A stretch of DNA of 64,000 bases from Eledone cirrhosa. Lineage: Eukaryota. Positions 12,301 through 46,200 of this stretch are shown piece by piece. The stretch covers positions 20,150,001 to 20,214,000 of the forward strand of contig OZ024752.1 of NCBI GenBank assembly GCA_964016885.1, read 5' to 3'. The notes beneath the pieces were generated by a model. That model searched no databases. It was not told the DNA's origin and was given only the letters and a program-made list of their open reading frames with translations. The first letter of the stretch is position 1. Each line of letters begins with the position of its first letter. The position numbers and the translations under genes were made by a program.

Positions 12301-15300
12301 CCTTACCTGCCATCTCCACCCCAGCCCACCTAATGAGCTATACCTTACCTGCCATCTCCACCCCAGCCCTCCTAATGAGCTATACCTTACCTGCCATCTC
12401 CACCCCAGCCCACCTAATGAGTTATACCTTACCTGCCATCTCCACCCCAGCCCACCTAATGAGCTATACCTTACCTGCCATCTCCACCCCAGCCCACCTA
12501 ATGAGTTATACCTTACCTGCCATCTCCACCCCAGCCCTCCTAATGAGCTATACCTTACCTGCCATCTCCACCCCAGCCCACCTAATGAGCTATATCTTAC
12601 CTGCCATCTCCACCCCAGCCCACCTAATGAGCTATACCTTACCTGCCATCTCCACCCCAGCCCACCTAATGAGCTATACCTTACCTGCCATCTCCACCCC
12701 AGCCCACCTAATGAGCTATACCTTACCTGCCATCTCCACCCCAGCCCACCTAATGAGCTATACCTTACCTGCCATCTCCACCCCAGCCCACCTAATGAGC
12801 TATACCTTACCTGCCATCTCCACCCCAGCCCACCTAATGAGCTATACCTTACCTGCCATCTCCACCCCAGCCCTCTTAATGAGCTATACCTTACCTGCCA
12901 TCTCCACCCCAGCCCTCTTAATGAGCTATACCTTACCTGCCATCTCCACCCCAGCCCTTCTAATGAGCTATACCTTACCTGCCATCTCCACCCCAGCCCA
13001 CCTAATGAGCTATACCTTACCTGCCATCTCCACCCCAGCCCACCTAATGAGTTATACCTTACCTGCCATCTCCACCCCAGCCCACCTAATGAGCTATACC
13101 TTACCTGCCATCTCCACCCCAGCCCACCTAATGAGCTATACCTTACCTGCCATCTCCACCCCAGCCCACCTAATGAGCTATACCTTACCTGCCATCTCCA
13201 CCCCAGCCCTCCTAATGAGCTATACCTTACCTGCCATCTCCACCCCAGCCTTCCTAATGAGCTATACCTTACCTGCCATCTCCACCCCAGCCCACCTAAT
13301 GAGCTATACCTTACCTGCCATCTCCACCCCAGCCCACCTAATGAGCTATACCTTACCTGCCATCTCCACCCCAGCCCACCTAATGAGTTATACCTTACCT
13401 GCCATCTCCACCCCAGCCCACCTAATGAGCTATACCTTACCTGCCATCTCCACCCCAGCCCACCTAATGAGCTATACCTTACCTGCCATCTCCACCCCAG
13501 CCTTCCTAATGAGCTATACCTTACCTGCCATCTCCACCCCAGCCCACCTAATGAGCTATACCTTACCTGCCATCTCCACCCCACTCCACCTAATGAGCTA
13601 TACCTTACCTGCCATCTCCACCCCACTCCACCTAATGAGTTATACCTTACCTGCTATCTCCACCCCAGCCCTCCTAATGAGTTATACCTTACCTGCCATC
13701 TCCACCCCAGCCCTCCTAATGAGTTATACCTTACCTGCCATCTCCACCCCAGCCCTCCTAATGAGCTATACCTTACCTGCTATCTCCACCCCAGCCCTCC
13801 TAATGAGTTATACCTTACCTGCCATCTCCACCCCAGCCCTCCTAATGAGCTATACCTTACCTGCCATCTCCACCTAATGAGCTATACCTTACCTGCCATC
13901 TCCACCCCAGCCTTCCTAATGAGCTATACCTTACCTGCCATCTCCACCCCAGCCCACCTAATGAGTTATACCTTACCTGCCATCTCCACCCCAGCCCACC
14001 TAATGAGCTATACCTTACCTGCCATCTCCACCCCAGCCCACCTAATGAGCTATACCTTACCTGCCATCTCCACCCCAGCCCTCCTAATGAGCTATACCTT
14101 ACCTGCCATCTCCACCCCAGCCTTCCTAATGAGCTATACCTTACCTGCCATCTCCACCCCAGCCCACCTAATGAGCTATACCTTACCTGCCATCTCCACC
14201 CCAGCCCACCTAATGAGCTATACCTTACCTGCCATCTCCACCCCAGCCCACCTAATGAGTTATACCTTACCTGCCATCTCCACCCCAGCCCACCTAATGA
14301 GCTATACCTTACCTGCCATCTCCACCCCAGCCCACCTAATGAGCTATACCTTACCTGCCATCTCCACCCCAGCCTTCCTAATGAGCTATACCTTACCTGC
14401 CATCTCCACCCCAGCCCACCTAATGAGCTATACCTTACCTGCCATCTCCACCCCAGCCCTCCTAATGAGCTATACCTTACCTGCCATCTCCACCTAATGA
14501 GCTATACCTTACCTGCCATCTCCACCCCAGCCTTCCTAATGAGCTATACCTTACCTGCCATCTCCACCCCAGCCCACCTAATGAGTTATACCTTACCTGC
14601 CATCTCCACCCCAGCCCACCTAATGAGCTATACCTTACCTGCCATCTCCACCCCAGCCCACCTAATGAGCTATACCTTACCTGCCATCTCCACCCCAGCC
14701 CTTCTAATGAGCTATACCTTACCTGCCATCTCCACCCCAGCCCACCTAATGAGCTATACCTTACCTGCCATCTCCACCCCAGCCCTTCTAATGAGCTATA
14801 CCTTACCTGCCATCTCCACCCCAGCCCACCTAATGAGTTATACCTTACCTGCCATCTCCACCCCAGCCTTCCTAATGAGCTATACCTTACCTGCCATCTC
14901 CACCCCAGCCCACCTAATGAGTTATACCTTACCTGCCATCTCCACCCCAGCCTTCCTAATGAGCTATACCTTACCTGCCATCTCCACCCCAGCCTTCCTA
15001 ATGAGCTATACTTTACCTGCCATCTCCACCCCAGCCCTCCTAATGAGCTATACCTTACCTGCCATCTCCACCCCAGCCCACCTAATGAGCTATACCTTAC
15101 CTGCCATCTCCACCCCAGCCCTCCTAATGAGCTATATCTTACCTGCCATCTCCACCCCAGCCCACCTAATGAGCTATACCGTACCTGCCATCTCCACCCC
15201 AGCCCTTCTAATGAGCTATACCTTACCTGCCATCTCCACCCCAGCCCTCCTAATGGGCTATACCTTACCTGCCATCTCCACCCCAGCCCTCCTAATGAGC

Positions 15301-15960
15301 TATACCTTACCTGCCATCTCCACCCTAGCCCACCTAATGAGTTATACCTTACCTGCCATCTCCACCCCAGCCCACCTAATGAGTTATACCTTACCTGCCA
15401 TCTCCACCCCAGCCCACCTAATGAGCTATACCTTACCTGCCATCTCCACCCCAGCCCACCTAATGAGCTATACCTTACCTGCCATCTCCACCCCAGCCCT
15501 TCTAATGAGCTATACCTTACCTGCCATCTCCACCCCAGCCCTTCTAATGAGCTATATCTTACCTGCCATCTCCACCCCAGCCCTCCTAATGAGTTATACC
15601 TTACCTGCCATCTCCACCCCAGCCCTCCTAATGAGCTATACCTTACCTGCCATCTCCACCCTAGCCCACCTAATGATCTATACCTTACCTGCCATCTCCA
15701 CCCCAGCCTTCCTAATGAGCTATACCTTACCTGCCATCTCCACCCCAGCCCACCTAATGAGCTATACCTTACCTGCCATCTCCACCACCCAACACTAAGT
15801 GAACCCTTGCTATTTCAGTACGTAAGTTCAAGAGTGCAGGAATTATTGAGCATGTCTACCCTCTTCATGACACAGAACAGTTGAAACGTTTAGCAACAAG
15901 TTGGGACTTGAAGTCTTTCTTCCGTCAGTTACCCATGGGTAAGTATCTCATTCTTTCTCT

Positions 15961-16037
<77 letters not shown>

Positions 16038-18962
16038 CAGGCATTCTATTGTCATTCAGTCTTTTTTGGCTGTATTCTTCTTTTTTGTCTTCTTTCTTCT
16101 CCTCCATTCAGTTTGTGTCAAAGGACAAAACTTCCCTACACTAAATAGATTGTATGGCCATACATAAACAAGATGCAGACGCTTTGGAATATCTGGGAAT
16201 AGCCCTTCTTCAGTACTTACTTGGTCCATGTAGACCTGTCCAACCCTTGCTAGCAGGGAAAGCAGACATTAAATGATGATTCAAAATATATGGCCGTATA
16301 TGTAGGTTTTATATGTGGCCAATGCTAAGGTGCAGTAAGTAGCAAGTGCCCACAGGATACTATCTCCTTCTATTGCCCAGATGGTTCTATAGAAATAGTG
16401 GACACTTTCCATTACCTGGGTGATGAAATCAACAGTGGTGGAGGGTGTTCTGAAAGTACAGTAATGGGATGGAAAAAGTTCAGAGAGCTAATACCACTGT
16501 TGACCACAAAAGGTTTCTCTCTAAAAATGAAAGGCAGATTGTATGATGCTTGTATACAAACAACAATGTTACATGACTGTGAGACATGGGCATTGTGTGC
16601 AGAGGATCTGTGCAGATTGGAAAGAAACAACGCATGCATGCTCCGATGGATGTGTAATAGTAATATACATGAATGGCAGAGCATAAACAAACGAAGTGAG
16701 AAATTAGGCATAAGAGGGATCAGATGTAGTTTACTAGAGAGGAGATTGTATTGGTAAGATCATGTGGTGCATATGAAGGACAACAGCTGTATAAAAAAGT
16801 GCAGGGAGATCAAAATTGACGAAAGCCTCAGAGTAGGTAAATCCAGAAAGACCTGGTACGAGGTGATAAAAGCTGACCTCTCTAAGACAATGACACAGGA
16901 TCGAGATCTTTAGCGCTATGCAGTAATACAGAAGACCCGTCTTGTAGGCAGCTCTTAATCGAATACACACCCTAAACCCCTACACCCCACACACCCTACA
17001 CCTTCCTCCCACACCACCCTTGCTCTGTAAAGTTATGTTTGTACCACAAAACATCCAGCCCACACTGTAAAGTGGTTGTGTAGGAGAAATGGCAAAAAGC
17101 ACCCAGTCACAATGTAAATGTGGTTGATGTTAGGAAGGGCATCTAGCTGTAGAAAACCAGCCAGATAGTCCTATACGAGCAAGACATGGTCACTCGACCA
17201 AACTTGCCTCAAATGAGACAAATCCATCTCACCCATGCTAGCATGAAATATAAACTTTAAATGATGATGATGATGATAATGATAATTATGAAGTTTGCTT
17301 CACAAGGTGGTTTTGAGTTCAATCCCATTGCACAGCACTTTGGGAAAATGTGTTCTACCATAGCCTTGGATTAATCAAAGCTTTGTTTGTGAATGAAACT
17401 TAGTAGATGGAGACTGTGTGGAAGACCATTGGTGAAACAGTTCCTTAATTGTAGGTGGTAGACTTGATCTATAATCCAATTTAATCAGCTGGATCATGAG
17501 TGACTTCAGCAGAGTCCACTCTGTTGCAAACATTCAGGCTAAACCTCCAGTCTGGACACACCTTCCTCCCACCAGTGTTAGAGGTCCTGATTAAGGTCAT
17601 CATCACTGGTCTTTTTCTTCTGGTTAAGCCTTAAAAGAATGAAAAAAAGCAAAAAAAATATTCAAATTTCTTACCTACTCTGACTAATCCATTTACTGTT
17701 TTGTTTCCTCATTACAGATGACATCAGATCTTATTTTGGAGAGAAACTGGCCATATATTTCTCGTTTCTTATCATCTACACCTATGCCCTCATTGCTCCA
17801 GCTATTATTGGTATCATCTATTTAATCACCAGTTGGAACAACATTTACCGAGAAGCCATCTTTGCTGTCTTCAACCTAATATGGACCACCATTTTTCTGG
17901 AGTTCTGGAAGCGATTCTGTTCTGAGCTCACCTTTAAATGGGGTACTCTCAATGAAGTTCCTGAAACCGAGGAACCTCGTCCAAGCTTCCATGGCGTTTT
18001 GGGTGTAAATCCTGTGACAGGCAATCCTGAGCCTGTCTACCCCAAGTGGAAACGGCGTCTAAGATTTTATTGTGTCACAGTTCCAGTGATAATACTTTGC
18101 TTGTTTCTTGCCTTCGAAGCAATGTTATTGTACTTCCAAATGCAGGATTGGGCAAACCGTCTCTATGAAAATAACCCAAGCTACCTGAACTATGCCAATA
18201 TGTTGTGTTTCCCCAGCATCATCTATGCTGTTGCTGTGACTCTCATGAATCTCTTGTATAACATACTTATTAAGAAGCTCAATGATTTTGGTAAGTGTGT
18301 GGTAACCATGTATATAAAGATATATTTTACATTAAAATGAACTAATTTTGGTTTGACCTGCTATGAGGAGGACAAATATATGTCTGATCATTCTTTTCAT
18401 TCACAAAAATAAAGCTAAAAATTCTTTTCCTGCTGAGGGGGTTCAGCAAAAGACACAGTTTTCTCAAGTTAATGAAGATCTAGATAGATGCAGGTTAGAT
18501 CTGGTTAAGTTAACCTTAACAGGGGGATAGTAGATTTGTTAGTGTTAAGTGCACAAAACCACTTCAATTGTGGACTATAAAAATAGAAATGAAGGTCAAA
18601 CATATATGTGTGTGTGTGAATGATCCCTTAACTTCTAGCAGAGTCATTGGGATGTCGTTGTTACATGCAGTGTACTTTGGGCACTATAAACCTGGCAAGG
18701 CTTATCCCCTATCTAGGTCTGAATGTAGCCGATTTCTTCCAGAGAAGTTGAAAAAGAGATATAGAGAGAGAATTGACCTCAGTACTGGACTAGTACTTTT
18801 TTTATTGACCTTGAAAGGATGAAAAGCAAAGTTGGCTTTGAACTCAGAGCATGCAGTCCTGGAACAAATACCACAAGGCATTATATCTGACATTCTAATG
18901 ACTCTACCCACACACACACACATACATGCTCCCCTCCACACACTCTCGCTCACATACTCACT

Positions 18963-19001
<39 letters not shown>

Positions 19002-22000
19002 TGGTTAAAAAAACGGGAGATTATATCCGTCCTCGAGTATAGTTTACTAATTTGTTGTGGAACTAACTCTCTATCTATCTATCTATCTATATATCTATCC
19101 ACCTTACTGAAGGAATACGAAAGGTTCACAGGAGCGAAGCTGAATCGGGACAAGTCCATCGGTTTGCAACTCAGATTGTGGAGAGGCAAACCGATGCCTT
19201 CCGATGGCATCGTCGGACGCTGGACGGAAGGACTGGTAAAGCTGCTCGGGGTCTGGTTTGGTCCGGACCTCCAGGTGGAGAAGAACTGGAACGAGGTGAC
19301 GGCCAAGGTGTTTGCACTCACCCAGAAGTGGGCCGAGTGCAAACTATCCTTGAAAGGTCGAGCGGAGGTGACGAACACTTTTATAGCATCCGTCATCTAC
19401 TACCACTTGACCGCCGTGCCTTGTCCAGCCAAAACGCTCACCAAAATGGAGCACGCGCTCTTCCAATTCCTTTGGAAGAAGCGGGCTCCTTTGGTGAGAA
19501 GATCCATCTGCTGCCAACACCCTTCCAACGGAGGGCTGGGGATGCCGTGGCTGACAATGCGCAAACACGCGCTCAGGCTGCGGCATCTCTACATATTCCT
19601 CACCGGACAACCGGTGTGGGCCCCGTTCGTGAGGCAAGCCTTCCCACGACTCGCCTCTCTGACCGAGCTGCAGTCCTGGGTCAAGCAAAGACCGAGGAAA
19701 ATGGGCGACTGGAACATCGAATGTGCTCAGGTGCTCACAGCTCTCTGGCAGGCGGACCCGGCGATCAGTGGAGACTCCACTTCGTCATTCTATAGAGGGT
19801 TGATCCGCAGCAAGTGCGACAACATGCTCAGAGAAGCTCTGGGCATGGAGGAAGACGAACTGGCCAGTCTGTTTGGTAGGAACTTCCGCCCGGGACTGAT
19901 GGACAACTTCCAAAAGTCCCTGGCCTGGCAGTGCTACTGAGGAGCTCTAGCAGTTCGGGACAAGCTCTACAGATATGGGCACCTGTGCAGGGGCCCTTCG
20001 AAAAAGATCTGTCCAAGATGCGTGCGAGACGAAGAAACCGTCGCACACGCATTTATACACTGCCCGGGCGTTATCGACCTGTGGGGCTATGTGGAACGAC
20101 TATTGTCGCTGGTGGACCAATCCGGTTGACCACCGAGTCCATTGTCATGATCAAACCGCCACCCTCCTTCAAAAATGGAGGAGAGGCGGTTTTCCTTTGT
20201 GTGGTAGCTATAGCAAAAGAGGTTGTATGGTGGACAAGGTTAAAAGGGCTGAGGTCAGACACCTTTCTCTCCGGCCAACAACTGATTCTTTTTTTCAAAT
20301 ACCACTTTGGAAGAAGAATCAGGAAGGAGAGAGAGAGGTGCTGTACCCCAGCAAGTTTTATGAAAGGTGGGTGAAAGTGGCGAGAATGGCCCGAGTGAAT
20401 GGGCCTTCTCTCTATATCAGCCTGTAGGTTGAGGAAAAGGAGGAAGAGAGGAAAGGGGTACAAACTCTTCGTACTCCTGGAGGTGAGGGCTGCACATTTT
20501 TTCGTTGGTATGTGTTACCCATCTGAAATGTCTCCCCCTATTGGGGAAAATCGATTAACTTTTCAATTGCATTTGTGATAATATTTTACACGTTTTTATT
20601 GTATGTAAACTTCCCCCTTTGTATTTGTCCCCTTCTTTTGTGCCCCTGTTGTGGCTAATAAAGAAACATATCTATATATATGTATATATATATACAATGT
20701 AGTATATATAAGATGTCATGTATTTCTATTTACAGAAAACCATCGGCTGCAGTCTTCCTATGAAAACCATCTGATAGTAAAAATGGTTTCAGTAAGTTAT
20801 GATAATGTGTTACTTTTCCACAATCCCCTTAAATCCCCTTAAATATTTCATACATTAGATATTATTTTCTTTACACAGAATTCTTATTATCCTACACAAT
20901 TCACTCTATATTCTTTCATCACCAGCAACAGCAGCATTTTATATCCATTTTTGTTCCATGCTGGCTAAAGTTGAATATGTCATTCAGATAACATCAATAT
21001 AATCAGAGCTCTTGTCCTCATAAATCTGCTAGTGACTATACCATACTTACATACATTCTAGGATGTCCTTCCGAATGCTAACTACTTTACAGAGTGTACT
21101 GAGTGCATTTAACTATGGCACCATCACTAGTAAAGTTGTCGTCACCTTGACACACCTGAACAGTTCTCTCAACTTTATGACTTACAACGTTGCCCCATAT
21201 CTATACTGACCTCAGTTTCTTAAAGTATCCACCAAATGCTTTATGTTGTCACCACATCCTATCCTACACTCTATACTATCCTATCACTGTCTTTCATATG
21301 TTCTTTACCGTTTTACTATGTAGGATGTTAAAGAAAACTCCATTAACCCTTTAGCATTTAAACTGGTTAGAATTCTCTCACCATCCAGAATTCTCTCACC
21401 TCTTTCTGTTCAAACCGGCTGTAACTGGCCAGTCATACTGATGTTAAGGTATTGTTCTCAAAATAAATAATATTAAAATCTCATAGATTCAATGTTATGT
21501 GAGATAAATATATATATGGCCCCAGCCAGATGGCTGAAACAGGTAAAAGAGTATATATATATATATATATATATGCAGAGGTTATATTTAATTTGTTGGG
21601 ATACAACAAGCTTAAAAATATTTTTATAACTGATATAAAGCACTCAACGGGTAATTGGAGTAAATATACAATATATTAACAAATGGAAACTATATTTATA
21701 AAACCATATTTATTTTATTATACATATTTCAAGGGCCACCAAGGCAAATTATGGTGCGCTTTCATCAGATAAAATACAATACAGATTAGTTTTATAAATA
21801 AATATTGACATACCCTGAAAAAAAGACAACCTTAATGGTTCCTATCCAGGAAGCTCCAACCGTTAAGGTTGTCTTTTTTTCAGGGTATGTCAATATTTAT
21901 TTATAAAACTAATCTGTATTGTATTTTATCTGATGAAAGCGCACCATAATTTGCCTTGGTGGCCCTTGAAATATGTATAATAAAATAAATATGGTTTTAT

Positions 22001-22043
22001 AAATATAGTTTCCATTTGTTAATATATATATATATATATATTG

Positions 22044-22103
<60 letters not shown>

Positions 22104-25100
22104 TATATATATATATCAAATGAAGCAATGGAGTAAAGGACTCCTGTTGTTTCCTGTAATATAATAAGCTCAGGGAAAATTTTCCAAGCTCTTCAAAATA
22201 TATAAGAATACATGAAAAGAACATGTTTTTTCATTACAGGGTGTATGTCACCCTGTGTACAGATTAGCTCTTTTTATTTACACTAGATATGGTTAATGTA
22301 ACATTACTAGGCATGGATTAGTGGATAAGCAAATTGGATTTACAATCATGAGGTTACGAGTTCAATTCCCAAACCAAGTAATGTGTTATGTCCTTGAGCA
22401 AGACACTTTATTTCTGCCAGGAGTTGTGACTGGTAGATAATATCAGCAGTGGAAAGACTAATGGAAACATTGTTTCCTCGGTCCAATATGACAAGTTCCA
22501 CCTCACTCAATAAGCAAACAACATCTGGGATCTTGTCAATTAATTTGATTGATTGATCGAAGGTAGGGGGAGTCTATTGTACAGCATCATATGTACACCA
22601 ACACCAGTAAATACACCTAGCCTGTTAGTATCATATGTACAACTTGAAGCCCTACAGCCACAGTTTCAATATAACAACATACCAACCATATTATCATATA
22701 TATAGATATGTCATGTATACATATATAATGTATACATATATAATGTATAGATATATCATATATATATATATATATCATCATCATCATCATCATCATTTTA
22801 CGTCCGCTTTTCCCTGCTTGCAAGGGTGGGACGGGAACTGATTCTGGCTTGATTTCTACAGCTGGATGCCCTTCCTAACACCAACCTCATTTACAGTGAG
22901 TTCTGGGTGCTTTTTTTCCATGGCACCTCCACGACCACTTTGCAGTGGAATGATATGGACTCCAGTCCCTATCATCTCATTTCTACAGCTGAGTAAACTG
23001 GAGCAATGTGAAATAAAGTGTCTTGCTCAAGGAAACAACACATCACCCGGTCTGGGAATTGAACTCACAACCTTTCGATTGCAAGGCCAATGCTCTAACC
23101 ACTAAGCCATGTGCTTCCATTATCATATATACATATATATATATATCATATATACATATATATAGATATATCATATATATATATATCATATATATATACA
23201 TATATATATAGTGGAGGCACATGGCTTAGTGGTTAGAGCATTGGGCTTGCAATTGAAAGGTTGTGAGTTCAATTCCCAGACCGGGTGATGTGTTGTTTCC
23301 TTGAGCAAGACACTTTATTTCACATTGCTCCAGTTTACTCAGCTGTAGAAATGAGATGATAGGGACTGGAGTCCATATCATTCCACTGCAAAGTGGCCAC
23401 GGCAAAAAAGCACCCAGCACTCACTGTAAATGAGGTTGGTGTTAGGAAGGGCATCCAGCTGTAGAAATCAAGCCACATTCAGTTCCTGTCCCACCCTTGC
23501 AAGCAGGGAAAAGCGGACGTAAAATGAAATGATGATATATATATATATCATATATACATATATATATATCATATATACATATATATATATATATACATAT
23601 ATATTATAGATACATATATACATATATATCACATATATATATATATATAAATGAAAAGTATAGAAATTATTATGAGCAAGAAGCACACAGTATTTCAAAA
23701 TATATAAGTGACTATAGCGTCAACATGGGAAAATAGTTAGCATAAGATGTGGGGAAAATAATTGAAACTCAATTCAAAAAGAATCAGGATATAGATTCAT
23801 CCAACAGAATTTAGTGAAATCCAGGGAAAAATCAATAGAGCCTTAACTCCTGATAAAATAAAGTTTAAAATACTCATCCTTCAATTTGGAAAAACTACAA
23901 ATGCTCTGTATAATCTTGAAAAGACTATTTCACATCATATATATATACATATATATCATATATATACATTTATCATATATACATATATATCATATATATA
24001 TACATATATCATATATACATATATACATATATATCATATATACATATATATATATCATATATACATATATATACATATATATCATATATACATATATATA
24101 TACATATATATCATATATATCATATATACATATATATATACATATATATCATATATACATATATATACATATATACATATATCATATATACATATATATC
24201 ATATATACATATGTCATATATACATATATGATATATGTATATCAAATATACATATATAATATACACTTATATAATATACACATGTATAATCATCATCATC
24301 ATCATCAACGTTTAACGTCCGTGTTCCACGCTTGCATGGGTTTGGACGGGGGTAGTCCCACTTGAGGCAAGAGTGATTGTCTTGCTCGCATAGGACTGTC
24401 TGGCAGGTTTTCTACAGTTGGATGCCCTTCCTAACACCAACCACATTTACAGTGTGGGTCTGGGAGGTTTTTACCGTGTTGCCTACACGGCCACATTACA
24501 GCGTGGACTGTGTGTTTTTTTGTCGTGACACCTACACGATATAATATATATATATATATATATGTAACGGAAGGTGTCCACTATTTCTATAGAACCATCT
24601 GGGCAATAGAAGGAGCTAGTATCTTGTGGGCACTTGCAACTTATTGCACCTGAGCACCGGCCACATATAAAGTCTACGTTCTTAGATAGTTTACCTGTGA
24701 TCCCACTACATCTTTTATGTACCCATACTTTGCATTTGGGACATAAAATGGAATTTCTGCCTACTCCTTTCCTACGCACTGAGCATGGCCATTTCCCAGA
24801 GGGGACCTGTGCCCTATTTTCCTTCCTACATACTAAAACTTTAGTCTTAGACGGAAGTTACGGAGTAGGCAGACCCAAAAAAATCTTGGACGATTTGATA
24901 AATTCCGACCTTAAACACCTGACCCTCTAAGACAATGTCACTGGACCAAGATCTTTGGCGCTACGCAGTAATACAGAAGATCCACCTTGCCTAAGTACAA
25001 AACGAAACCTACAGTCAGTAGGCACCTCTTAACCAAATATACACCCCCTCCTACTAACCCCCCCATCAACACCACCCCTTTCTCTGTAAAGTTATGTTGG

Positions 25101-28100
25101 TACCACAACATCCAGTCCTAAATAAATGAGGTTGTGTAGGTGTCACAACAAAAAAACACACTGTCCACGCTGTAATGTGACCGTGTAGGTAACACGGTAA
25201 AAAGTAACCAGTCCACACTGTAAACGTGGTTGGTGTTAGGAAGGGCATCCATCCATGGAAAACCCGCCAGACAGTCCTACACAAGCGAGACGACCAATCT
25301 TGCCTCAAGTGGGACAATTCCCGTCTAAACCCATGCTAGCGTGGAAGATAGATGTTAAATGATGATGACACATATATAATATATATTTTCTTTCCTTTCC
25401 AGTTCAACTTTGTCAACTCCTTCATGTCGCTGTTTTATATGGCATTTTACCTGCAGGATAACACGCTACTGTATAGTGTAAGTATATATTATACCCTGTA
25501 TATGGAATGTGTCTGTATGTGTGTGTGTAGACATGCAGGTGTGGCTGTATGTCTGTGTGTGTGTGTGTAGACATGCAGGTGTGGCTGTATGTCTGTGTGT
25601 GTGTATAGACATGCAGGTGTGACTGTATGTCTGTGTGTGTGTAGACATGCAGGTGAGGCTGTATGTCTGTGTGTGTGTGTGTGTGTAGACATGCAGATGT
25701 GGCTGTATGTCTGTGTGTGTGTGTGTGTGTGTAGACATGCAGGTGTGGCTGTATGTCTGTGTGTGTGTGTGTGTGTGTGTAGACATGCAGATGTGGCTGT
25801 ATGTCTCTGTGTGTGTGTGTGTGTGTGTGTGTAGACATGCAGGTGTGGCTGTATGTCTGTGTGTGTGTGTGTGTGTGTGTAGACATGCGTTGTGGCTGTA
25901 TGTCTGTGTGTGTGTGTGTGTAGACATGCAGGTGTGGCTGTATGTCTGTGTGTGTGTGTAGACATGCAGGTGTGGCTGTATGTCTGTGTGTGTGTGTGTA
26001 GACATGCAGGTGTGGCTGTATGTCTGTGTGTGTGTGTGTGTAGACATGCAGGTGTGGCTGTATGTCTGTGTGTGTGTGTGTGTAGACATGCAGGTGTGGC
26101 TGTATGTCTGTGTGTGTGTGTAGACATGCAGGTGTGGCTGTATGTCTGTGTGTGTGTGTGTGTAGACATGCAGGTGTGGCTGTATGTCTGTGTGTGTGTG
26201 TGTGTGTAGACATGCAGGTGTGGCTGTATGTCTGTGTGTCTGTGTGTGTAGACATGCAGGTGTGGCTGTATGTCTGTGTGTGTGTGTGTGTAGACATGCA
26301 GGTGTGGCTGTATGTCTGTCTGTGTGTGTGTGTAGACATGCAGGTGTGGCTGTATGTCTGTGTGTGTGTGTGTGTGTGTAGACATGCAGGTGTGGCTGTA
26401 TGTCTGTGTGTGTGTGTGTAGACATGCAGGTGTGGCTGTATGTCTGTGTGTGTGTGTAGACATGCAGTTGTGGCTGTATGTCTGTGTGTGTGTGTGTGTA
26501 GACAAGCAGTTGTGGCTGTATGTCTGTGTGTGTGTGTGTGTAGACATGCAGGTGTGGCTGTAAGTCTGTGTGTGTGTGTGTGTAGACATGCAGGTGTGGC
26601 TGTATGTCTGTGTGTGTGTGTAGACATGCAGGTGTGGCTGTATGTCTGTGTGTGTGTGTGTAGACATGCAGGTGTGGCTGTATGTCTGTGTGTGTGTGTG
26701 TAGACATGCAGGTGTGGCTGTATGTCTGTGTGTGTGTGTGTAGACATGCAGGTGTGGCTGTATGTCTGTGTGTGTGTGTAGACATGCAGGTGTGGATGTA
26801 TGTCTGTGTGTGGGTGTGTGTAGACATGCAGGTGTGGCTGTATGTCTGTGTGTGTGTGTGTAGACATGCAGGTGTGGCTGTATGTCTGTGTGTGTGTATA
26901 GACATGCAGGTGTGACTGTATGTCTGTGTGTGTGTAGACATGCAGGTGAGGCTGTATGTCTGTGTGTGTGTGTGTGTGTAGACATGCAGATGTGGCTGTA
27001 TGTCTGTGTGTGTGTGTGTGTGTGTAGACATGCAGGTGTGGCTGTATGTCTGTGTGTGTGTGTGTGTGTGTGTAGACATGCAGATGTGGCTGTATGTCTC
27101 TGTGTGTGTGTGTGTGTGTGTGTGTAGACATGCAGGTGTGGCTGTATGTCTGTGTGTGTGTGTGTGTGTGTGTAGACATGCGTTGTGGCTGTATGTCTGT
27201 GTGTGTGTGTGTGTAGACATGCAGGTGTGGCTGTATGTCTGTGTGTGTGTGTAGACATGCAGGTGTGGCTGTATGTCTGTGTGTGTGTGTAGACATGCAG
27301 GTGTGGCTGTATGTCTGTGTGTGTGTGTGTGTAGACATGCAGGTGTGGCTGTATGTCTGTGTGTGTGTGTGTGTAGACATGCAGGTGTGGCTGTATGTCT
27401 GTGTGTGTGTGTAGACATGCAGGTGTGGCTGTATGTCTGTGTGTGTGTGTGTGTAGACATGCAGGTGTGGCTGTATGTCTGTGTGTGTGTGTGTGTGTAG
27501 ACATGCAGGTGTGGCTGTATGTCTGTGTGTCTGTGTGTGTAGACATGCAGGTGTGGCTGTATGTCTGTGTGTGTGTGTGTGTAGACATGCAGGTGTGGCT
27601 GTATGTCTGTCTGTGTGTGTGTGTAGACATGCAGGTGTGGCTGTATGTCTGTGTGTGTGTGTGTGTGTGTGTGTAGACATGCAGGTGTGGCTGTATGTCT
27701 GTGTGTGTGTGTGTAGACATGCAGGTGTGGCTGTATGTCTGTGTGTGTGTGTAGACATGCAGTTGTGGCTGTATGTCTGTGTGTGTGTGTGTGTAGACAA
27801 GCAGTTGTGGCTGTATGTCTGTGTGTGTGTGTGTGTAGACATGCAGGTGTGGCTGTAAGTCTGTGTGTGTGTGTGTGTAGACATGCAGGTGTGGCTGTAT
27901 GTCTGTGTGTGTGTGTAGACATGCAGGTGTGGCTGTATGTCTGTGTGTGTGTGTGTAGACATGCAGGTGTGGCTGTATGTCTGTGTGTGTGTGTGTAGAC
28001 ATGCAGGTGTGGCTGTATGTCTGTGTGTGTGTGTGTAGACATGCAGGTGTGGCTGTATGTCTGTGTGTGTGTGTAGACATGCAGGTGTGGATGTATGTCT

Positions 28101-28573
28101 GTGTGTGGGTGTGTGTAGACATGCAGGTGTGGCTGTATGTCTGTGTGTGTGTGTGTAGACATGCAGGTGTGGCTGTATGTCTGTGTGTGGGTGTGTGTAG
28201 ACATGCAGGTGTGGCTGTATGTCTGTGTGTGTGTGTGTAGACATGCAGGTGTGGCTGTATGTCTGTGTGTGTGTGTGTAGACATGCAGGTGTGGCTGTAT
28301 GTCTGTGTGTGTGTGTAGACATGCAGGTGTGGATGTATGTCTGTGTGTGTGTGTGTGTAGACATGCAGGTGTGGCTGTATGTCTGTGTGTGTGTGTAGAC
28401 ATGCAGTTGTGGCTGTATGTCTGTGTGTGTGTGTAGACATGCAGGTGTGGCTGTATGTCTCTGTGTGTGTGTGTGTAGACATGCAGGTGTGGCTGTATGT
28501 CTGTGTGTGTGTGTAGACATGCAGGTGTGGCTGTATGTCTGTGTGTGTGTGTAGACATGCAGGTGGGGCTGTA

Positions 28574-28604
<31 letters not shown>

Positions 28605-31600
28605 ACACATGCAGGTGTGGCTGTATGTCTGTGTGTGTGTGTGTGTGTGTGTGTAGACATGCAGGTGTGGCTGTATGTCTGTGTGTGTGTAGACATGCAG
28701 GTGTGTGGCTGTATGTCTGTATGTGTGTAGACATGCAGGTGTGGCTGTATGTCTGTGTGTGCGTGTGTAGACATGCAGGTGTGGCTGTATGTCTGTGTGT
28801 GTGTGTGTGTAGACATGCAGGTGTGGCTGTATGTCTGTGTGTGTGTGTGTGTAGACATGCAGGTGTGGCTGTATGTCTGTGTGTGTGTGTAGACATGCAG
28901 GTGTGGCTGTATGTCTGTGTGTGTGTGTAGACATGCAGGTGTGGCTGTATGTCTGTGTGTGTGTGTAGACATGCAGGTGTGGCTGTATGTCTGTGTGTGT
29001 GTGTAGACATGCAGGTGGGGCTGTATGTCTGTGTGTGTGTGTGTGTGTGTGTGTACACATGCAGGTGTGGCTGTATGTCTGTGTGTGTGTGTGTGTGTGT
29101 GTGTAGACATGCAGGTGTGGCTGTATGTCTGTGTGTGTGTAGACATGCAGGTGTGTGGCTGTATGTCTGTATGTGTGTAGACATGCAGGTGTGGCTGTAT
29201 GTCTGTGTGTGCGTGTGTAGACATGCAGGTGTGGCTGTATGTCTGTGTGTGTGTGTGTGTAGACATGCAGGTGTGGCTGTATGTCTGTGTGTGTGTGTAG
29301 ACATGCAGGTGTGGCTGTATGTCTGTGTGTGTGTGTAGACATGCAGGTGTGGCTGTATGTCTGTGTGTGTGTGTAGACATGCAGGTGTGGCTGTATGTCT
29401 GTGTGTGTGTGTAGACATGCAGGTGTGGCTGTATGTCTGTGTGTGTGTAGACATGCAGGTGTGGCTGTATGTCTGTGTGTGTGTGTAGACATGCAGGTGT
29501 TGCTGTATGTCTGTGTGTGTGTGTGTGTGTAGACATACAGGTGTGGCTGTATGTCTGTGTGTGTGTAGACATGCAGGTGTGGCTGTATGTCTGTGTGTGT
29601 GTGTAGACATGCAGGTGTGGCTGTATGTGTGTGTGTGTGTAGACATGCAGGTGTGTGGCTGTATGTCTGTGTGTGTGTGTAGACATGCAGGTGTGGCTGT
29701 ATGTCTGTGTGTGCGTGTGTAGACATGCAGGTGTGGCTGTATGTCTGTGTGTGTGTGTAGACATGCAGGTGTGGCTGTATGTCTGTGTGTGTGTGTGTGT
29801 AGACATGCAGGTGTGGCTGTATGTCTGTGTGTGTGTGTGTAGACATGCAGTTGTGGCTGTATGTCTGTGTGTGTGTGTGTGTAGACATGCGTTGTGGCTG
29901 TATGTCTGTGTGTGTGTGTGTGTAGACATGCAGGTGTGGCTGTATGTCTGTGTGTGTGTGTACACATGCAGGTGTGGCTGTATGTCTGTGTGTGTGTGTG
30001 TGTAGACATGCAGGTGTGGCTGTATGTCTGTGTGTGTGTGTAGACATGCAGGTGTGGCTGTATGTCTGTGTGTGTGTGTGTGTAGACATGCAGGTGTGGC
30101 TGTATGTCTGTGTGTGTGTGTGTGTAGACATGCAGTTGTGGCTGTATGTCTGTGTGTGTGTGTGTGTAGACATGCAGTTGTGGCTGTATGTCTGTGTGTG
30201 TGTGTGTGTGTATGTGTAGACATGCAGCTGTGGCTGTATGTCTGTGTGTGTGTGTGTGTGTGTAGACATGCAGGTGTGGCTGTATGTCTGTGTGTGTGTG
30301 TAGACATGCAGGTGTGGCTGTATGTCTGTGTGTGTGTGTGTGTAGACATGCAGGTGTGGCTGTATGTCTGTGTGTGTGTGTAGACATGCAGGTGTGGATG
30401 TATGTCTGTGTGTGTGTGTGTGTAGACATGCAGGTGTGGCTGTATGTCTGTGTGTGTGTGTGTGTGTGTGTAGACATGCAGGTGTGGCTGTATGTCTGTG
30501 TGTGTGTGTAGACATGCAGTTGTGGCTGTATGTCTGTGTGTGTGTGTGTGTGTAGACATGCAGGTGTGGCTGTATGTCTGTGTGTGTGTGTGTGTAGACA
30601 TGCAGGTGTGGCTGTATGTCTGTGTGTGTGTGTGTGTAGACATGCAGGTGTGGCTGTATGTGTGTGTGTGTAGATATGCATTTGTGGCTGTATGTCTGTG
30701 TGTGTGTGTGTGTAGACATGCAGGTGTGGCTGTATGTCTGTGTGTGTGTGTGTGTAGACATGCAGGTGTGGCTGTATGTCTGTGTGTGTGTGTGTAGACA
30801 TGCAGGTGTGGCTGTATGTCTGTGTGTGTGTGTAGACATGCAGGTGTGGCTGTATTTGTGTGTGTGTGTAGACATGCAGGTGTGTGGCTGTATGTCTGTG
30901 TGTGTGTGTAGACATGCAGGTGTGGCTGTATGTCTGTGTGTGCGGGTGTAGACATGCAGGTGTGGCTGTATGTCTGTGTGTGTGTGTAGACATGCAGGTG
31001 TGGCTGTATGTCTGTGTGTGTGTGTGTGTAGACATACAGGTGTGGCTGTATGTCTGTGTGTGTGTGTGTAGACATGCAGGTGTGGCTGTATGTCTGTGTG
31101 TGTGTGTAGACATGCAGGTGTGGCTGTATGTGTGTGTGTGTGTAGACATGCAGGTGTGGCTGTATGTCTGTGTGTGTGTGTGTGTGTAGACATGCAGGTG
31201 TGGCTGTATGTCTGTGTGTGTGTAGACATGCAGGTGTGGCTGTATGTCTGTGTGTGCGTGTGTAGACATGCAGGTGTGGCTCTATGTCTGTGTGTGTGTG
31301 TAGACATGCAGTTGTGGCTGTATGTCTGTGTGTGTGTGTGTGTGTAGACATGCAGGTGTGGCTGTATGTCTGTGTGTGCGTGTGTGTGTGTGTAGACATG
31401 CAGGTGTGGCTGTATGTCTGTGTGTGTGTGTAGACATGCAGGTGTGGCTGTATGTCTGTGTGTGTGTGTAGACATGCAGGTGTGTCTGTATGTCTGTGTG
31501 TGTGTGTGTGTGTGTGTAGACATGCAGGTGTGGCTGTATGTCTGTGTGTGTGTGTGTGTAGACATGCAGGTGTGGCTGTATGTCTGTGTGTGTGTAGACA

Positions 31601-37600: not shown

Positions 37601-39575
37601 GCTGTATGTCTGTGTGTGTGTGTGTGTGTAGACATGCAGGTGTGGCTGTATGTCTGTGTGTGTGTAGACATGCAGGTGTGACTGTATGTCTGTGTGTGTG
37701 TGTAGACATGCAGGTGTGGCTGTATGTCTGTGTGTGTGTGTATGTGTGTAGACATGCAGGTGTGGCTGTATGTCTGTGTGTGTGTGTGTGTAGACATGCA
37801 GGTGTGGCTGTATGTCTGTGTGTGTGTGTAGACATGCAGGTGTCGCTGTATGTCTGTGTGTGTGTGTGTGTAGACATGCAGGTGTGGCTGTATGTCTGTG
37901 TGTGTGTGTGTGTAGACATGCAGGTGTGGCTGTATGTCTGTGTGTGTGTGTGTGTAGACATGCAGGTGTGGCTGTATGTCTGTGTGTGTGTGTGTGTGTG
38001 TAGACATGCAGGTGTGGCTGTATGTCTGTGTGTGTGTGTGTGTAGACATGCAGGTGTGGCTGTATGTCTGTGTGTGTGTGTGTGTAGACATGCAGGTGTG
38101 GCTGTATGTCTGTCTGTGTGTGTGTGTAGACATGCAGGTGTGGCTGTATGTCTGTGTGTGTGTGTGTAGACATGCAGGTGTGGCTGTATGTCTGTGTGTG
38201 TGTGTAGACATGCAGGTGTGGCTGTATGTCTGTGTGTGTGTGTGTGTAGACATGCAGGTGTGGCTCTATGTCTGTGTGTGTGTGTGTAGACACGCAGTTG
38301 TGGCTGTATGTCTGTGTGTGTGTGTAGACATACAGGTGTGGCTGTATGTCTGTGTGTGTGTGTAGACATGCAGGTGTGGCTGTATCTCTGTGTGTCTGTG
38401 TGTAGACATGCAGGTGTGGCTGTATGTCTGTGTGTGTGTGTAGACATGCAGTTGTGGCTGTATGTCTGTGTGTGTGTGTAGACATGCAGGTGTGGCTGTA
38501 TGTCTGTGTGTGTGTGTAGACATGCAGGTGTGGCTGTATGTCTGTGTGTGTGTGTGTGTGTGTAGACATGCAGGTGTTGCTGTATGTCTGTGTGTGTGTG
38601 TGTGTGTGTAGACATGCAGGTGTGGCTGTATGTCTGTGTGTGTGTGTAGACATGCAGGTGTGGCTGTATGTCTGTGTGTGTGTGTAGACATGCAGGTGTG
38701 GCTGTATGTCTGTGTGTGTGTGTGTGTAGACATGCAGGTGTGGCTGTATGTCTGTGTGTGTGTGTGTGTGTGTAGACATGCAGGTGTTGCTGTATGTCTG
38801 TGTGTGTGTGTAGACATGCATGTGTGGCTGTATGCCTGTATGTGTGTGTAGACATGCAGGTGTGGCTGTATGTCTGTGTGTGTGTAGACATGCATGTGTG
38901 ACTTATGTCTGTGTGTGTGTGTGTGTAGACATGCAGGTGGGGCTGTATGTCTGTGTGTGTGTGTAGACATGCAGGTGTTGCTGTATGTCTGTGTGTGTGT
39001 GTGTGTAGACATGCAGGTGTGGCTGTATGTCTGTGTGTGTGTGTGTGTGTGTAGACATGCAGGTGTTGCTGTATGTCTGTGTGTGTGTGTAGACATGCAT
39101 GTGTGGCTGTATGCCTGTATGTGTGTGTAGACATGCAGGTGTGGCTGTATGTCTGTGTGTGTGTAGACATGCATGTGTGACTTATGTCTGTGTGTGTGTG
39201 TGTGTAGACATGCAGGTGGGGCTGTATGTCTGTGTGCGTGTGTAGACATGCAGGTGGGGCTGTATGTCTGTGTGTGTGTGTAGACATGCATGTGTGACTT
39301 ATGTCTGTGTGTGTGTGTGTGTAGACATGCAGGTGGGGCTGTATGTCTGTGTGCGTGTGTAGACATGCAGGTGGGGCTGTATGTCTGTGTGTGTGTGTAG
39401 ACATGCAGGTGGGGCAGTATGTCTGTGTGTGTGTGTGTGTGTATGCAGGTGGGGCAGTATGTCTGTGTGTGTGTGTGTGTGTATGCAGGTGAGGCCGTAT
39501 GTATGTGTGTATGTGTCTGTATGCAGGTGGGGCTGTATGTCTGTGTGTATGTGTCTGTATGCAGGTGGGGCTGTA

Positions 39576-39608
<33 letters not shown>

Positions 39609-43200: not shown

Positions 43201-46200
43201 CATTGGCGCCTGGCAGGTAATAAATTCCTTGTTGCACATCATTAACATATATTGCTGTATGGTTTAGAATAAATGATACATCGGTCAAGAAAAAGTATTG
43301 TTTCCTTTGTAGCAAGTGAAAATATCTCAGAAGGCAGAGGGAGAAATTAATACATGATACAGAGATCACATGCGGGCAGTAAGGTAAACAAAAAGTGAAA
43401 TAAATCATCCAACCATCTCAAGCAGGTGACAAAAAAGGCAGTGCTTGAATTTGAACATCACATCGCAACCAACCCTGACAGAAATATGTACATTCAAAGC
43501 AGAGGCCTCACTCTCCAGTTGTCCTCTTCACAATCCCCACACAAGCCAGATTACTGATGACCCCAAGGAATGCGTTGAACTCATTGCTGAATGCTATGCA
43601 GACATTTTCACTGTTGAAAACCAGAATGTACCATCTCCACCGCCTCTGACATCAACTATGGAACTTATACCTGCAATACTGCGACGTCATCTCAAGAATA
43701 AACGCAACCATGCTTCTCCTGGTTTTGATGGTGTTATGTACCTGCTTTTCAAACGTGTTGGGTACTTCCTTCTGCACCAGCTTTCACTCTTCTTTCAACA
43801 GTACTACTCCGGAGCAGTGGAAAACTGCTAGTGTCATTCCTCTGTTCAAAAAGGGTGACCGCATATCACCTGTGAACTATCGTCCAGTTAGTTTTACTAG
43901 CTGCATTGCCAAACTGATGGAATCCTGTGTCAGAGAAACACTTTGGAACTTCTAGAATTTTCACAGTCTTATCCAGCCCTAGCAATTTGGATTTATCCCT
44001 AACTCCAGCTGCTGTGATCAACTTATCGAGTTTCTTGAGGACATCACCCGGGTCACTGATGGCAGCTCATGTTGTTTACCTTGACTTTGAAGATGATGCA
44101 AATAAGTAGATGGTTAAGATTCAGTCATGACTGAATCTTAACCATCTACTAAGTCAGGGTATGTCATGCATCATCTTATTTTATCTGATGAGGACGTACT
44201 GTTGAAGATAGCTCAGTACCTCTGAAATATGTATAATAAAATATACTTGATCACACGAATGTCTATTTTTGTTAATATTTTGAATTAATATTATATATAT
44301 ATATATATATGGTATCTTTTATGTAATTTCCTAGATGATGTTTGAATTAATGGGTAGGATAGCTGTGATCACCAACTGTGTCATTATTGGATTAAACCCC
44401 CAGGTACAGAAGTTGGTACCTGGACACCAAACACCTGTTCAACTGGTCATCATTGTCGTCATTATGGAGGTTTGTAAATCTTTTCTATTGACTAGTGTTC
44501 AATCATTCAATCACTACTGCTATTAATGTTGCTGTTTGTCATATTATTAATGGCAGTATCAGTAGAGGGTCGGACGCCATGCTTTGCAGCATAGAGTTAC
44601 GGCCCTTTACGGTCTGAGTTCAAATCCTGGTGACGTTAACTTTGCCTTTCGTCCTTACGGAGTTGATAAAATAAAATACCAGTAATGTACTGTAGGAACA
44701 ATTATTAATGAGTTGTTAAATATTGTTATATTTTTACAGTATATTGTATGTTGTATATAGTTAGTCTCAATAGTCTTATGATTCCTCCATACTACTGATA
44801 GAATCTATTTATAGGTCCACTATATATATATACACACATATATATATATATATGTACATACACATGCATACACACACACATATATCTATATATATATGTA
44901 TATATTTTCTACGGCTGGATGCCCTTCCTAACGCCAACCACACTGTAATGTGGTTGGCGTTAGGAAGGGCATCCAGCCGTAGAAAACCAACTAGAAACAA
45001 TCCTATATGAGTGAGACACGGCCTCCCGACCCAACTTGCCTCTAATTGGGACAAACCCGTCTATCCCATGCTAGCGTGGAAGATGGACATTAATCAACGA
45101 TGATGATGATATATATATATATATACACACACATATATATATCATCATCATCATCATCGTTTAACGTCCATTTTCCACGCTATACATATATATATATATA
45201 TGTCACTGGACCGAGATCTTTGGGTTTACACAGTAATACAGAAGACCCGCTTTGCCTAAGTACAAAGTGAAACCTACAGTCAGTAGGCACTTCTTAACAA
45301 AAAAAATTTTTTAAATACACACCCGTCCCACTAACCCCACCCCATCCACACCACCCCTTTCTCTGTAAAGTTATGTTGGTACCACAACATCCAGTCCGAA
45401 ATAAATGAGGTTGTGTAGGTGTCACGACAAAAAAATTACACAGTCCACGCTGTAATGTGGCCGTGTAGGTAACACGGTAAAAACTTCCCAGTCCACACTG
45501 TAAATGTGGTTGGTGTTAGGAAGGGCATCCAGCCATAGAAAACCCGCCAGACAGTCCTATACGAGCAAGACAACCAATCTTGCCTCAAGTGGGAAAATTC
45601 CCGTCCAAACCCATGCAAGCGTGGAAGATGGACGTTAAACGATGATGATGATGATATATATATATATATATATATCATCATCATCATCATCATCAACGTT
45701 TAACGTCCGTGTTCCACGCTTGCATGGGTTTGGACGGGGGTATTCCCACTTGAGGCAAGAGTGATTGTCTTGCTCGCATAGGACTGTCTGGCAGGTTTTT
45801 TACAGTTGGATGCCCTTCCTAACACCAACCACATTTACAGTGTGGGACTGGGAGGTTTTTACCGTGTTGCCTACACGGCCACATTACAGCGTGGACTGTG
45901 TGTTTTTTTGTCGTGACACCTACACAATCTCATTTGTTTCGGCCTGGATGTTGTGGCACCAACATAACTTTACATAGGAGGGGGTGGTGTGGATGGGGGT
46001 GTGGGTGGTGGGACGGGGGTGTATTTTGTTAGAGATGCCTACTAGTAATAATAATAAATTTGAAGACTAAAATCCAAAGAGAGCTCGATAAGGATAAATA
46101 TATATCAAATATACAAGAACCGTAGAGCAAATATTTATTAAAATAACAGATTAAAGTTTAAGCAAAGAATCGCTGCTTTCACCCTTAACGGGATCTTCTG

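What the first reader, a model, noticed from the sequence alone, without database searches (positions are those of the whole stretch)
21922..21987. Intronic hammerhead ribozyme in the sense strand of ANO10 pre-mRNA
Seen: complete hammerhead core (CUGAUGA ... GAAA ... UA), an 8-bp stem I (UAUUUUAU/AUAAAAUA), a pairable stem II and a very short stem III. Known: minimal type-I hammerheads with palindromic stem III are typical of Penelope-like-element termini and can cleave as dimers. Inference: AUAUGUAU self-pairs over 8 bp with tandem U.G, so dimeric cleavage after 21979 is plausible. No PLE ORF is recognisable nearby, so this looks like a short non-autonomous ribozyme-carrying element.
Basis: partly seen in the sequence, partly recalled or inferred. 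Interest (0 to 1): 0.78.

Follow-up and report, generated by a model that had tools for sequence, protein, structure and literature searches.

The report
Mirror-paired hammerhead in Penelope transposon remnant
A hammerhead-ribozyme motif, one of more than 30,000 related motifs in this genome, lies in a small back-to-back remnant of a Penelope-type jumping gene inside an ANO10 intron, where its own mirror-image copy is predicted to pair with it and keep it from cutting, so it is likely ordinary transposon baggage rather than a control switch of the host gene.

Summary
The motif is real: a type I hammerhead at 21922-21987, sense strand, in an ANO10 intron (20792-25402). Longer copies elsewhere join this sequence to an RT + C-terminal GIY-YIG ORF with the marks of the Hydra clade of Penelope-like elements, so it is a 5'-truncated terminal repeat (pLTR) of an autonomous family, not a separate non-autonomous element. 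Two exact patterns count 30,613 related motifs genome-wide (controls 0); stem II covaries between subfamilies. In the ANO10 pre-mRNA the antisense arm is transcribed first and is predicted to lock the ribozyme in a 170-bp hairpin (102 kcal/mol better), so cleavage there is unlikely. Family-wide, two-armed insertions pair one long (+143) with one short (+50) 3' end in 46 of 47 cases, arms pile up at a start-site-like boundary near -137, and 93 of 95 arms that reach the cleavage site run through it: the copied RNA was uncleaved. No expression or cleavage data. New member of a known kind.

The parts
21922..21987 (+). Type I hammerhead motif: 8-bp stem I, CUGAUGA, stem II (3 bp, C.C mismatch, 6 bp with one bulge, 10-nt loop), GAAA, palindromic stem III AUAUGUAU, predicted cleavage after A21979
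21898..22005 (+). Predicted extension of stem I: 14-bp basal helix 21898-21911 / 21992-22005 (arm folded alone)
   Evidence: z -1.13, so weak by energy; a different long stem I extension is seen by eye in subfamily copy L096
21842..22043 (+). Short arm of the insertion: pLTR from one base after the putative start site (-136 on the reference) to the short 3' end (+50), with a (TA)n expansion at 22022-22041 inside it
21575..21840 (-). Long arm: inverted pLTR from -120 to the long 3' end (+143), carrying the 93-nt 'tail'
21711..21776 (-). Second, identical hammerhead motif on the minus strand (antisense in ANO10 pre-mRNA)
21552..21574 (.). (TA)n target tract, left side
22044..22116 (.). (TA)n target tract, right side
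20737..20791 (+). ANO10 exon upstream of the host intron
   Evidence: AG/GT borders and frame read by eye
25403..25477 (+). ANO10 exon downstream of the host intron (intron 20792-25402, 4,611 nt)
44177..44243 (+). Hammerhead of a sister subfamily (same stems I and III, different stem II) in a later ANO10 intron, with a short palindromic junction at 44105-44150

Best explanation
The motif is the hammerhead of the terminal repeat (pLTR) of a high-copy Hydra-clade Penelope-like retrotransposon, present here in a young, 5'-truncated head-to-head insertion in a (TA)n tract of an ANO10 intron, and it is predicted to be silent in the ANO10 pre-mRNA because its antisense twin is transcribed first and would pair with it. 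Shown: anatomy, family link, copy number, end structure. Inferred mechanism of origin: the element's GIY-YIG endonuclease cuts both strands of a (TA)n tract; each 3' end primes reverse transcription inside one unspliced, uncleaved element RNA, one at +50 and one at +143 after the hammerhead cleavage site (both followed by a short UA run that can pair with the target); both cDNAs run through the hammerhead and mostly stop at or before the RNA's 5' end near -137; repair joins them head to head. In the intact element the hammerhead likely works as a dimer through its palindromic stem III, or with help from the element's protein, to trim tandem read-through transcripts; in this copy it is a passenger.
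For: Family link: 52 matches from the 40 best of 828 candidates, 95-100% identical for the full-length ones; three copies extend about 1.5 kb upstream into an ORF with RT and C-terminal GIY-YIG motifs (L032, L034); L055 joins hammerhead, tail and ORF start in one stretch; uninterrupted 742-aa ORFs L061, L062. Copy number 22,465 + 8,148, reversed controls 0. Stem II: 6 of 9 pairs change on both sides among 18 chosen sequences, 98.3% of cells paired vs 92.9% shuffled, 0 of 500. Stem III varies between AUAUGUAU and the perfect palindrome AUAUAUAU (39 of 75 alignments). Ends: of 90 long-end loci, 47 have an adjacent inverted arm with the short end, 1 with the long end, 4 other, 2 direct, 36 none detected; 46 of 47 after removing one duplicate, p 7e-13. 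5' ends: 34 of the 49 arms that reach -129 stop within -138..-129; 2 of the 95 arms that reach +8 stop within -2..+8. The two arms of one insertion agree at 154 of 157 subfamily-diagnostic positions vs 61% on permutation (28 insertions). Folding: whole insertion -283.6 kcal/mol as hairpin vs -181.4 with hammerhead stems forced; hammerhead pairs near 1e-22 at each of four elongation lengths. Literature: two internal RT start sites, both strands cut and extended, uncleaved RNA as main substrate, protein-assisted hammerhead (PMC11167929); dual hammerheads 100-700 bp apart on opposite strands from truncated PLEs (PMC4209133).
Against: No cleavage assay and no RNA data. Folding models are equilibrium predictions; A-to-I editing or proteins could loosen the hairpin (not tested). 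Rfam does not recognise the motif, pair 10.1-11.1 is A-U and the monomer's stem I is predicted to slip, so intrinsic activity may be low or nil. Pfam finds no RT or GIY-YIG family in the ORFs; the domains rest on motifs compared by eye with the published Hydra alignment. In one search the count of pairs with two-sided change was not above shuffles (6 vs 4.8, 133 of 500), the sequences are related and were found with a pattern that fixes core and stem III. 36 of 90 long ends had no partner arm within 900 bp (longer elements, or other outcomes; not resolved). Agreement of the two arms is also expected from self-priming or from two RNAs of one master copy. 5' ends are alignment ends against one natural copy (L056). 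No extra-G cap signature at the -137 boundary (7 G of 24, p 0.39).
Confidence: 0.85

Rival explanations
1. Same element, but the hammerhead does cleave ANO10 pre-mRNA at 21979, by folding locally before the long hairpin zips or by dimerising with another sense copy (for example the sister motif at 44177-44243, which has identical stems I and III).
For: Core is intact and sense; palindrome can self-pair (-2.2 kcal/mol); a compatible sense motif lies in the same gene.
Against: The antisense arm is upstream and complete before the core emerges; predicted 102 kcal/mol penalty; partner is 22 kb away beyond a 14-kb array and other exons; metazoan PLE hammerheads cleave poorly even as dimers (PMC4209133, parts 1-2).
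Confidence: 0.07
2. The palindromes arise by self-priming or template switching (one arm copied from the other, possibly from an antisense RNA, as proposed for rotifer Penelope elements) rather than by twin priming on one sense RNA.
For: Arms of one insertion share subfamily marks; palindromes at head-to-head junctions were read this way in PMC3846280 (passages).
Against: Either arm can be the longer at its 5' end and both pile up at the same -137 boundary, which has initiator-like sequence in three subfamilies; the two 3' ends are fixed and nearly always unlike, as two internal start sites on a sense RNA would give (PMC11167929).
Confidence: 0.25
3. A separate non-autonomous retrozyme/SINE-like element that spreads as a circular or tandem RNA.
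For: Most copies are short and ORF-less; a sister subfamily forms a 4-copy tandem array in L029.
Against: 5' ends are ragged and grade into ORF-bearing copies; this copy is inverted, not tandem; the short arms lack the sequence upstream of -137.
Confidence: 0.05
4. A host-co-opted intronic ribozyme like the conserved amniote intronic hammerheads.
For: Sense orientation in an intron of a conserved gene.
Against: Arms differ at 1 of 164 positions and the motif is identical to the commonest variant (42 hits): a young insertion among >30,000; both orientations are present; no cross-species conservation could be tested.
Confidence: 0.02
5. The palindrome is an assembly artefact.
For: Long perfect palindromes can be artefacts; no contig of the laid runs spans the whole stretch (which says this proves nothing).
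Against: Unequal arms with the family's two fixed ends, unique flanks, and the same design at dozens of loci on many contigs.
Confidence: 0.01

Closest known systems
Hydra clade of C-terminal EN+ Penelope-like elements (Craig et al. 2021, PMC8557442; includes Hydra-1_Obim from Octopus bimaculoides)
   Same: Single ORF RT + C-terminal GIY-YIG; RW(R/K), DKT, CxCX5C linker, no CCHH; (TA)n targets; hammerhead near the 3' end with 3-4 bp palindromic stem III; inverted 5'-truncated copy; tail at one end.
   Different: Different family from Hydra-1_Obim (protein start and hammerhead differ, compared by eye with the supplement); about 1.5-kb AT-rich 3' UTR; tail 93 nt instead of 30-40; stem II with a C.C mismatch not seen in the listed Hydra hammerheads; best database relatives only 39-43% identical.
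Poseidon PAc of Anolis carolinensis (Frangieh et al. 2024, PMC11167929)
   Same: Two internal RT start sites that define the tail; AT-rich target; both strands extended; template mostly uncleaved.
   Different: Other clade; start sites lie in the ORF and 30-40 nt apart there, in the 5' leader and 93 nt apart here; that paper saw no strand difference in start site in vitro, whereas here two-armed insertions pair unlike ends 46 of 47 times.
Minimal PLE hammerheads (Cervera and de la Pena 2014, PMC4209133)
   Same: Type I, palindromic 15.2-16.2 region, long stem II, thousands of copies, dual motifs on opposite strands 100-700 bp apart.
   Different: A-U or G-U at 10.1-11.1 instead of the conserved G-C, no extra base between 9 and 10.1 in this reading, 8-bp stem I; at least 30,613 copies vs 9,000 in Xenopus (but 126,247 type I motifs in axolotl, PMC7229834).
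Non-LTR retrozymes (PMC7229834; bioRxiv 10.64898/2026.07.22.740005)
   Same: Short, ORF-less, type I hammerhead, derived from PLE pLTRs.
   Different: Retrozymes are head-to-tail tandem repeats; this insertion is head-to-head.
Conserved intronic hammerheads of amniotes (RECK etc.; as reviewed in PMC6155905)
   Same: Type I hammerhead in the sense strand of a host intron.
   Different: Those are few, old and conserved across species; this is a young repeat copy with an antisense twin.

Membership tests
Type I hammerhead ribozyme | Core CUGANGA...GAAA...UH with three stems, stem I open | tested here: met
   triplet AUA, cleavage position 21979
Type I hammerhead ribozyme | Stems supported by compensating changes | tested here: met
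   stem II 6 of 9 pairs two-sided; stem I only wobble changes; stem III fixed by the search pattern; related sequences, so not independent
Type I hammerhead ribozyme | G10.1-C11.1 pair (usual, not obligatory) | tested here: not met
   A-U in 35, G-U in 12, A-C in 1 of 48 distinct motifs; U11.1 partly fixed by the pattern
Type I hammerhead ribozyme | Match to an Rfam hammerhead model | tested here: not met
Type I hammerhead ribozyme | Mg2+-dependent self-cleavage at N17 | not testable with these tools
   needs in vitro assay
EN+ Penelope-like element | One ORF with RT and GIY-YIG endonuclease | tested here: met
   in other genomic copies sharing the pLTR, by motifs; absent from the window copy; Pfam silent
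EN+ Penelope-like element | pLTRs in partial tandem and/or inverted, hammerhead in pLTR, tail at one end | tested here: met
Hydra clade | RWK-like motif, DKG changed to DKT | tested here: met
   RWR and KSDKT in L055, L057, L061, L062 vs PMC8557442 section 11
Hydra clade | CxCX5C linker, no CCHH in EN, CxxC and CxH beside the conserved E and N | tested here: met
   CNCRNKSNC, CDLC/CALC..EE, N..C.H, read by eye
Hydra clade | Insertion into (TA)n | tested here: met
Hydra clade | Length generally under 3 kb | tested here: not met
   2.2-kb ORF plus about 1.5-kb 3' UTR plus pLTR, about 4 kb; the paper says 'generally'
Hydra clade | Groups with Hydra in an RT phylogeny | not tested
Non-LTR retrozyme | Head-to-tail tandem units each with a hammerhead | tested here: not met
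   window copy is head-to-head; a tandem array was seen only for a sister subfamily in L029
Domesticated intronic hammerhead | Conserved at the orthologous intron across species | not testable with these tools
   G000 has no relatives here

The most novel reading that the evidence does not exclude
This lineage records the Penelope integration reaction tens of thousands of times in miniature: one uncleaved sense RNA is primed twice, at two fixed sites 93 nt apart, one per target strand, and both cDNAs run off at the pLTR start site, leaving head-to-head hairpins. That would settle, for the Hydra clade, sense versus antisense template and explain the one-sided tail as a strict rule; the invariant C.C mismatch in stem II would mark a protein or tertiary contact that switches the hammerhead on, and thousands of perfect intronic hairpins would feed RNA editing or small-RNA silencing.
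Probability: 0.4. Interest if true: 0.55.

Novelty: new member of a known kind. Interest (0 to 1): 0.33.

Why it matters
For ANO10 itself probably little: the copy is a young passenger predicted to be self-masked. The family matters modestly: it is a very large (at least 30,613 motifs, about one per 100 kb), still young Hydra-clade lineage with uninterrupted ORFs, and its ends give sharp, testable coordinates (start near -137, priming at +50 and +143, no pile-up at the cleavage site) for the open questions of how Penelope-like elements make inverted ends and what their hammerheads are for.

Tried and rejected
Rfam: no match at gathering score; only chance hairpin families at E<=10. Pfam on the ORFs: nothing for L032, only sub-threshold chance hits for 3 ORFs. 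Cleavage footprint: 3 arms starting at +4..+7 in the first sample suggested templates cut by the ribozyme; in the larger sample chosen by the long end, 2 of 95 arms stop at -2..+8, so rejected. Two independent RNAs drawn from the pool of subfamilies: rejected, arms agree at 154 of 157 diagnostic positions. Cap-derived extra G at the -137 boundary: 7 of 24, p 0.39; about 4 of the 24 rows were misclassified by my filter, still not significant by eye. Core better kept than flanks within the subfamily: no, 29 of 900 (3.2%) vs 110 of 2534 (4.3%) in the 3' flank, about 1.5% once two subfamily-diagnostic sites are removed by hand. Genome-wide counts of long ends (2,374) and short ends (3,417) are of the same order but the patterns cover different sets of subfamilies, so not used as a test. 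Expression: no RNA holder listed; 4 of the 6 listed runs were laid, all contigs of unrecorded kind, none spanning the stretch; no evidence either way. Energy of the strand-swapped dimer could not be scored; the cofold minimum was not the active dimer. Target-site duplication cannot be read inside (TA)n. Earlier scan findings: none for this genome. A paper on dimeric PLE hammerheads that I recalled (Lunse et al. 2017) was not held and is not used.

Full report
Observation. The loose core pattern occurs 4 times in the window against 0.66 expected. The host gene is ANO10 (Pfam Anoctamin; Anoctamin-10 far ahead among solved structures), on the + strand, with exons read by eye at 20737-20791 and 25403-25477 and a further one at 43019-43252; the motif is in a 4.6-kb intron, sense. 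Rfam does not recognise it and energy folding of the bare motif does not give the hammerhead.

The motif is half of a palindrome: arms 21671-21840 and 21858-22027 are 170 nt and 99% complementary, so an identical hammerhead lies on the minus strand. The whole insertion runs from 21575 to 22043 between (TA)n tracts.

Family. A DNA search of the own genome (3.0 Gb) scored 40 of 828 candidates and returned 52 matches, the full-length ones 95-100% identical. Copies L006, L009 and L023 share about 1.5 kb of AT-rich sequence upstream, which leads into an ORF with RT and C-terminal GIY-YIG motifs. A protein search gave 192 matches from 96 scored of 89,142 candidates; of 12 regions fetched, L061 and L062 hold uninterrupted 742-aa ORFs and L055 joins hammerhead, tail and start codon in one stretch. 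The ORFs carry RWR, DKT, a CxCX5C linker, no CCHH, and CxxC/CxH beside the conserved E and N, the marks given for the Hydra clade in PMC8557442 section 11; targets are (TA)n. The protein start and hammerhead differ from the published Hydra-1_Obim (supplement, by eye). Database relatives are 39-43% identical at best, the best named one from Argonauta hians; with the genome size this suggests an octopod host (inference). Two non-overlapping exact patterns count 22,465 and 8,148 motifs, controls 0.

Is the hammerhead under selection? Among 48 distinct motifs, 18 were chosen to span four subfamilies and aligned. Stem II has two-sided changes in 6 of 9 pairs, 98.3% of cells pair vs 92.9% in shuffles (0 of 500), slid controls 36-52%; the number of pairs with two-sided change alone is not above shuffles (133 of 500) and the rows are related. 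A C.C mismatch at the fourth position of stem II is kept in 45 of 48. Stem III alternates between AUAUGUAU and the perfect palindrome AUAUAUAU (39 of 75 alignments in loci not chosen by the core), as a dimer model expects. Within the subfamily the core is hit as often as the flank. So selection acts on active master elements; genomic copies decay neutrally.

How such insertions end. With positions counted from the cleavage site, 3' ends fall at +50 or +143, each followed in the intact element by a short TA run, and the ORF starts near +197. Of the first 100 places of a long-end pattern (2,374 in all) I examined 90 (one left out as already held, nine not fetched): 47 have an adjacent inverted arm with the short end, 1 with the long end, 4 other, 2 direct, 36 none within 900 bp; 46 of 47 without one duplicate. 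5' ends pile up: 34 of 49 arms reaching -129 stop within ten bases, at a C-A-C-T-A initiator-like motif found at the same place in three subfamilies, with a TATA-like run about 30 nt upstream clearest in the sister subfamily (promoter role inferred). Only 2 of 95 arms reaching +8 stop at the cleavage site, so templates were uncleaved. Both arms of an insertion carry the same subfamily marks (154 of 157). The simplest reading is one sense RNA primed at two fixed internal sites, one per target strand, with run-off at the RNA 5' end. [quoted passage not shown] The window copy fits the rule (long arm -120..+143, short arm -136..+50) and is young: arms differ at 1 of 164 positions.

What it does in ANO10. 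The antisense arm is upstream, so it is made first. The insertion folds as one long hairpin (-292 kcal/mol, z -33.6); forcing stems I and II costs 102 kcal/mol and hammerhead pairs are negligible at four elongation lengths. Even alone, the + arm prefers a slipped stem I, the octamer duplex is weak (-2.2 kcal/mol), and metazoan PLE hammerheads cleave poorly in vitro (PMC4209133, parts 1-2 of 4 read). The nearest sense partner seen is 22 kb away. Cleavage of the pre-mRNA is therefore unlikely; a long double-stranded intronic hairpin is the likelier product (prediction; editing or small RNAs not tested). No RNA run was available.

Comparison and novelty. Hammerheads in PLE termini, opposite-strand pairs from truncated copies, the Hydra clade in Octopus, and the one-sided tail are all in print. 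A search for 'hammerhead ribozyme' with 'octopus' listed 4 papers, of which only the Craig et al. preprint bears on this; searches (listings only, apart from the papers named) showed no description of this family, but Repbase/Dfam and subscription journals were not searchable, and bioRxiv supplements are closed. Also seen: PMC7229834 and PMC6155905 (passages), bioRxiv 10.64898/2026.07.22.740005 (part 1 of 5). Verdict: a new, very abundant member of a known kind; the local claim of a working intronic ribozyme is not supported; the strict long/short pairing and the -137 boundary are the parts worth following.

Noticed in passing
window 44105-44300 (+): Sister-subfamily hammerhead insertion in a later ANO10 intron, with a 46-bp palindromic 5' junction and a short-type end into (TA)n; unlike the main copy it has no long antisense arm, so it is the better candidate for unmasked cleavage in ANO10 pre-mRNA.
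   Followed up: partly
L029:285-1363 (G000:C5 near 32,484,300): Four head-to-tail copies of the sister-subfamily hammerhead unit, spaced about 280-310 bp with (TA)n spacers: a retrozyme-like tandem array that could form dimers; these copies have a change in the stem III palindrome.
   Followed up: no
stem II, window 21940/21964 and all subfamilies: A C.C mismatch after three base pairs is kept in 45 of 48 distinct motifs while the pairs on both sides change.
   Followed up: partly
window 21883-21892: A GGGTA(T/C)GTCA motif about 40 nt after the putative start site is kept across three subfamilies whose surrounding sequence differs; it looks like a 5' splice donor or a promoter element. If a donor, the hammerhead would lie in a leader intron of the element's mRNA.
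   Followed up: no
window 22820-23500: A second inverted structure in the same intron (arms of 189 nt at 98% and 105 nt at 94%), from another repeat family.
   Followed up: no
window 8656-15786 and 25510-39828: Very long minisatellite arrays inside ANO10 introns: 42-bp unit x 170 and about 38-40-bp unit x 355.
   Followed up: no
window 3772-4785 (-), 16329-16757 (+), 19002-20427 (+), 58947-59432 (+): Fragments of non-LTR retrotransposon ORFs.
   Followed up: no
window 21345-21550: A very high-copy repeat directly left of the insertion (highest depth), ending next to the (TA)n target.
   Followed up: no
L031:5651-7353, L032:5028-6530 (oriented as), L066:9146-9901: Fragments of other GIY-YIG-bearing Penelope-like families, some as inverted pairs, next to Hydra copies.
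   Followed up: no
L061:3175-5400, L062:3284-5509: Asparagine-rich stretches between RT and EN in the uninterrupted ORFs, recalling the N-rich inserts of rotifer Penelope elements (PMC3846280).
   Followed up: no
L055:6745 (-), L060:2244 (+): Two further hammerhead-like motifs with longer stem II regions, from unrelated families.
   Followed up: no
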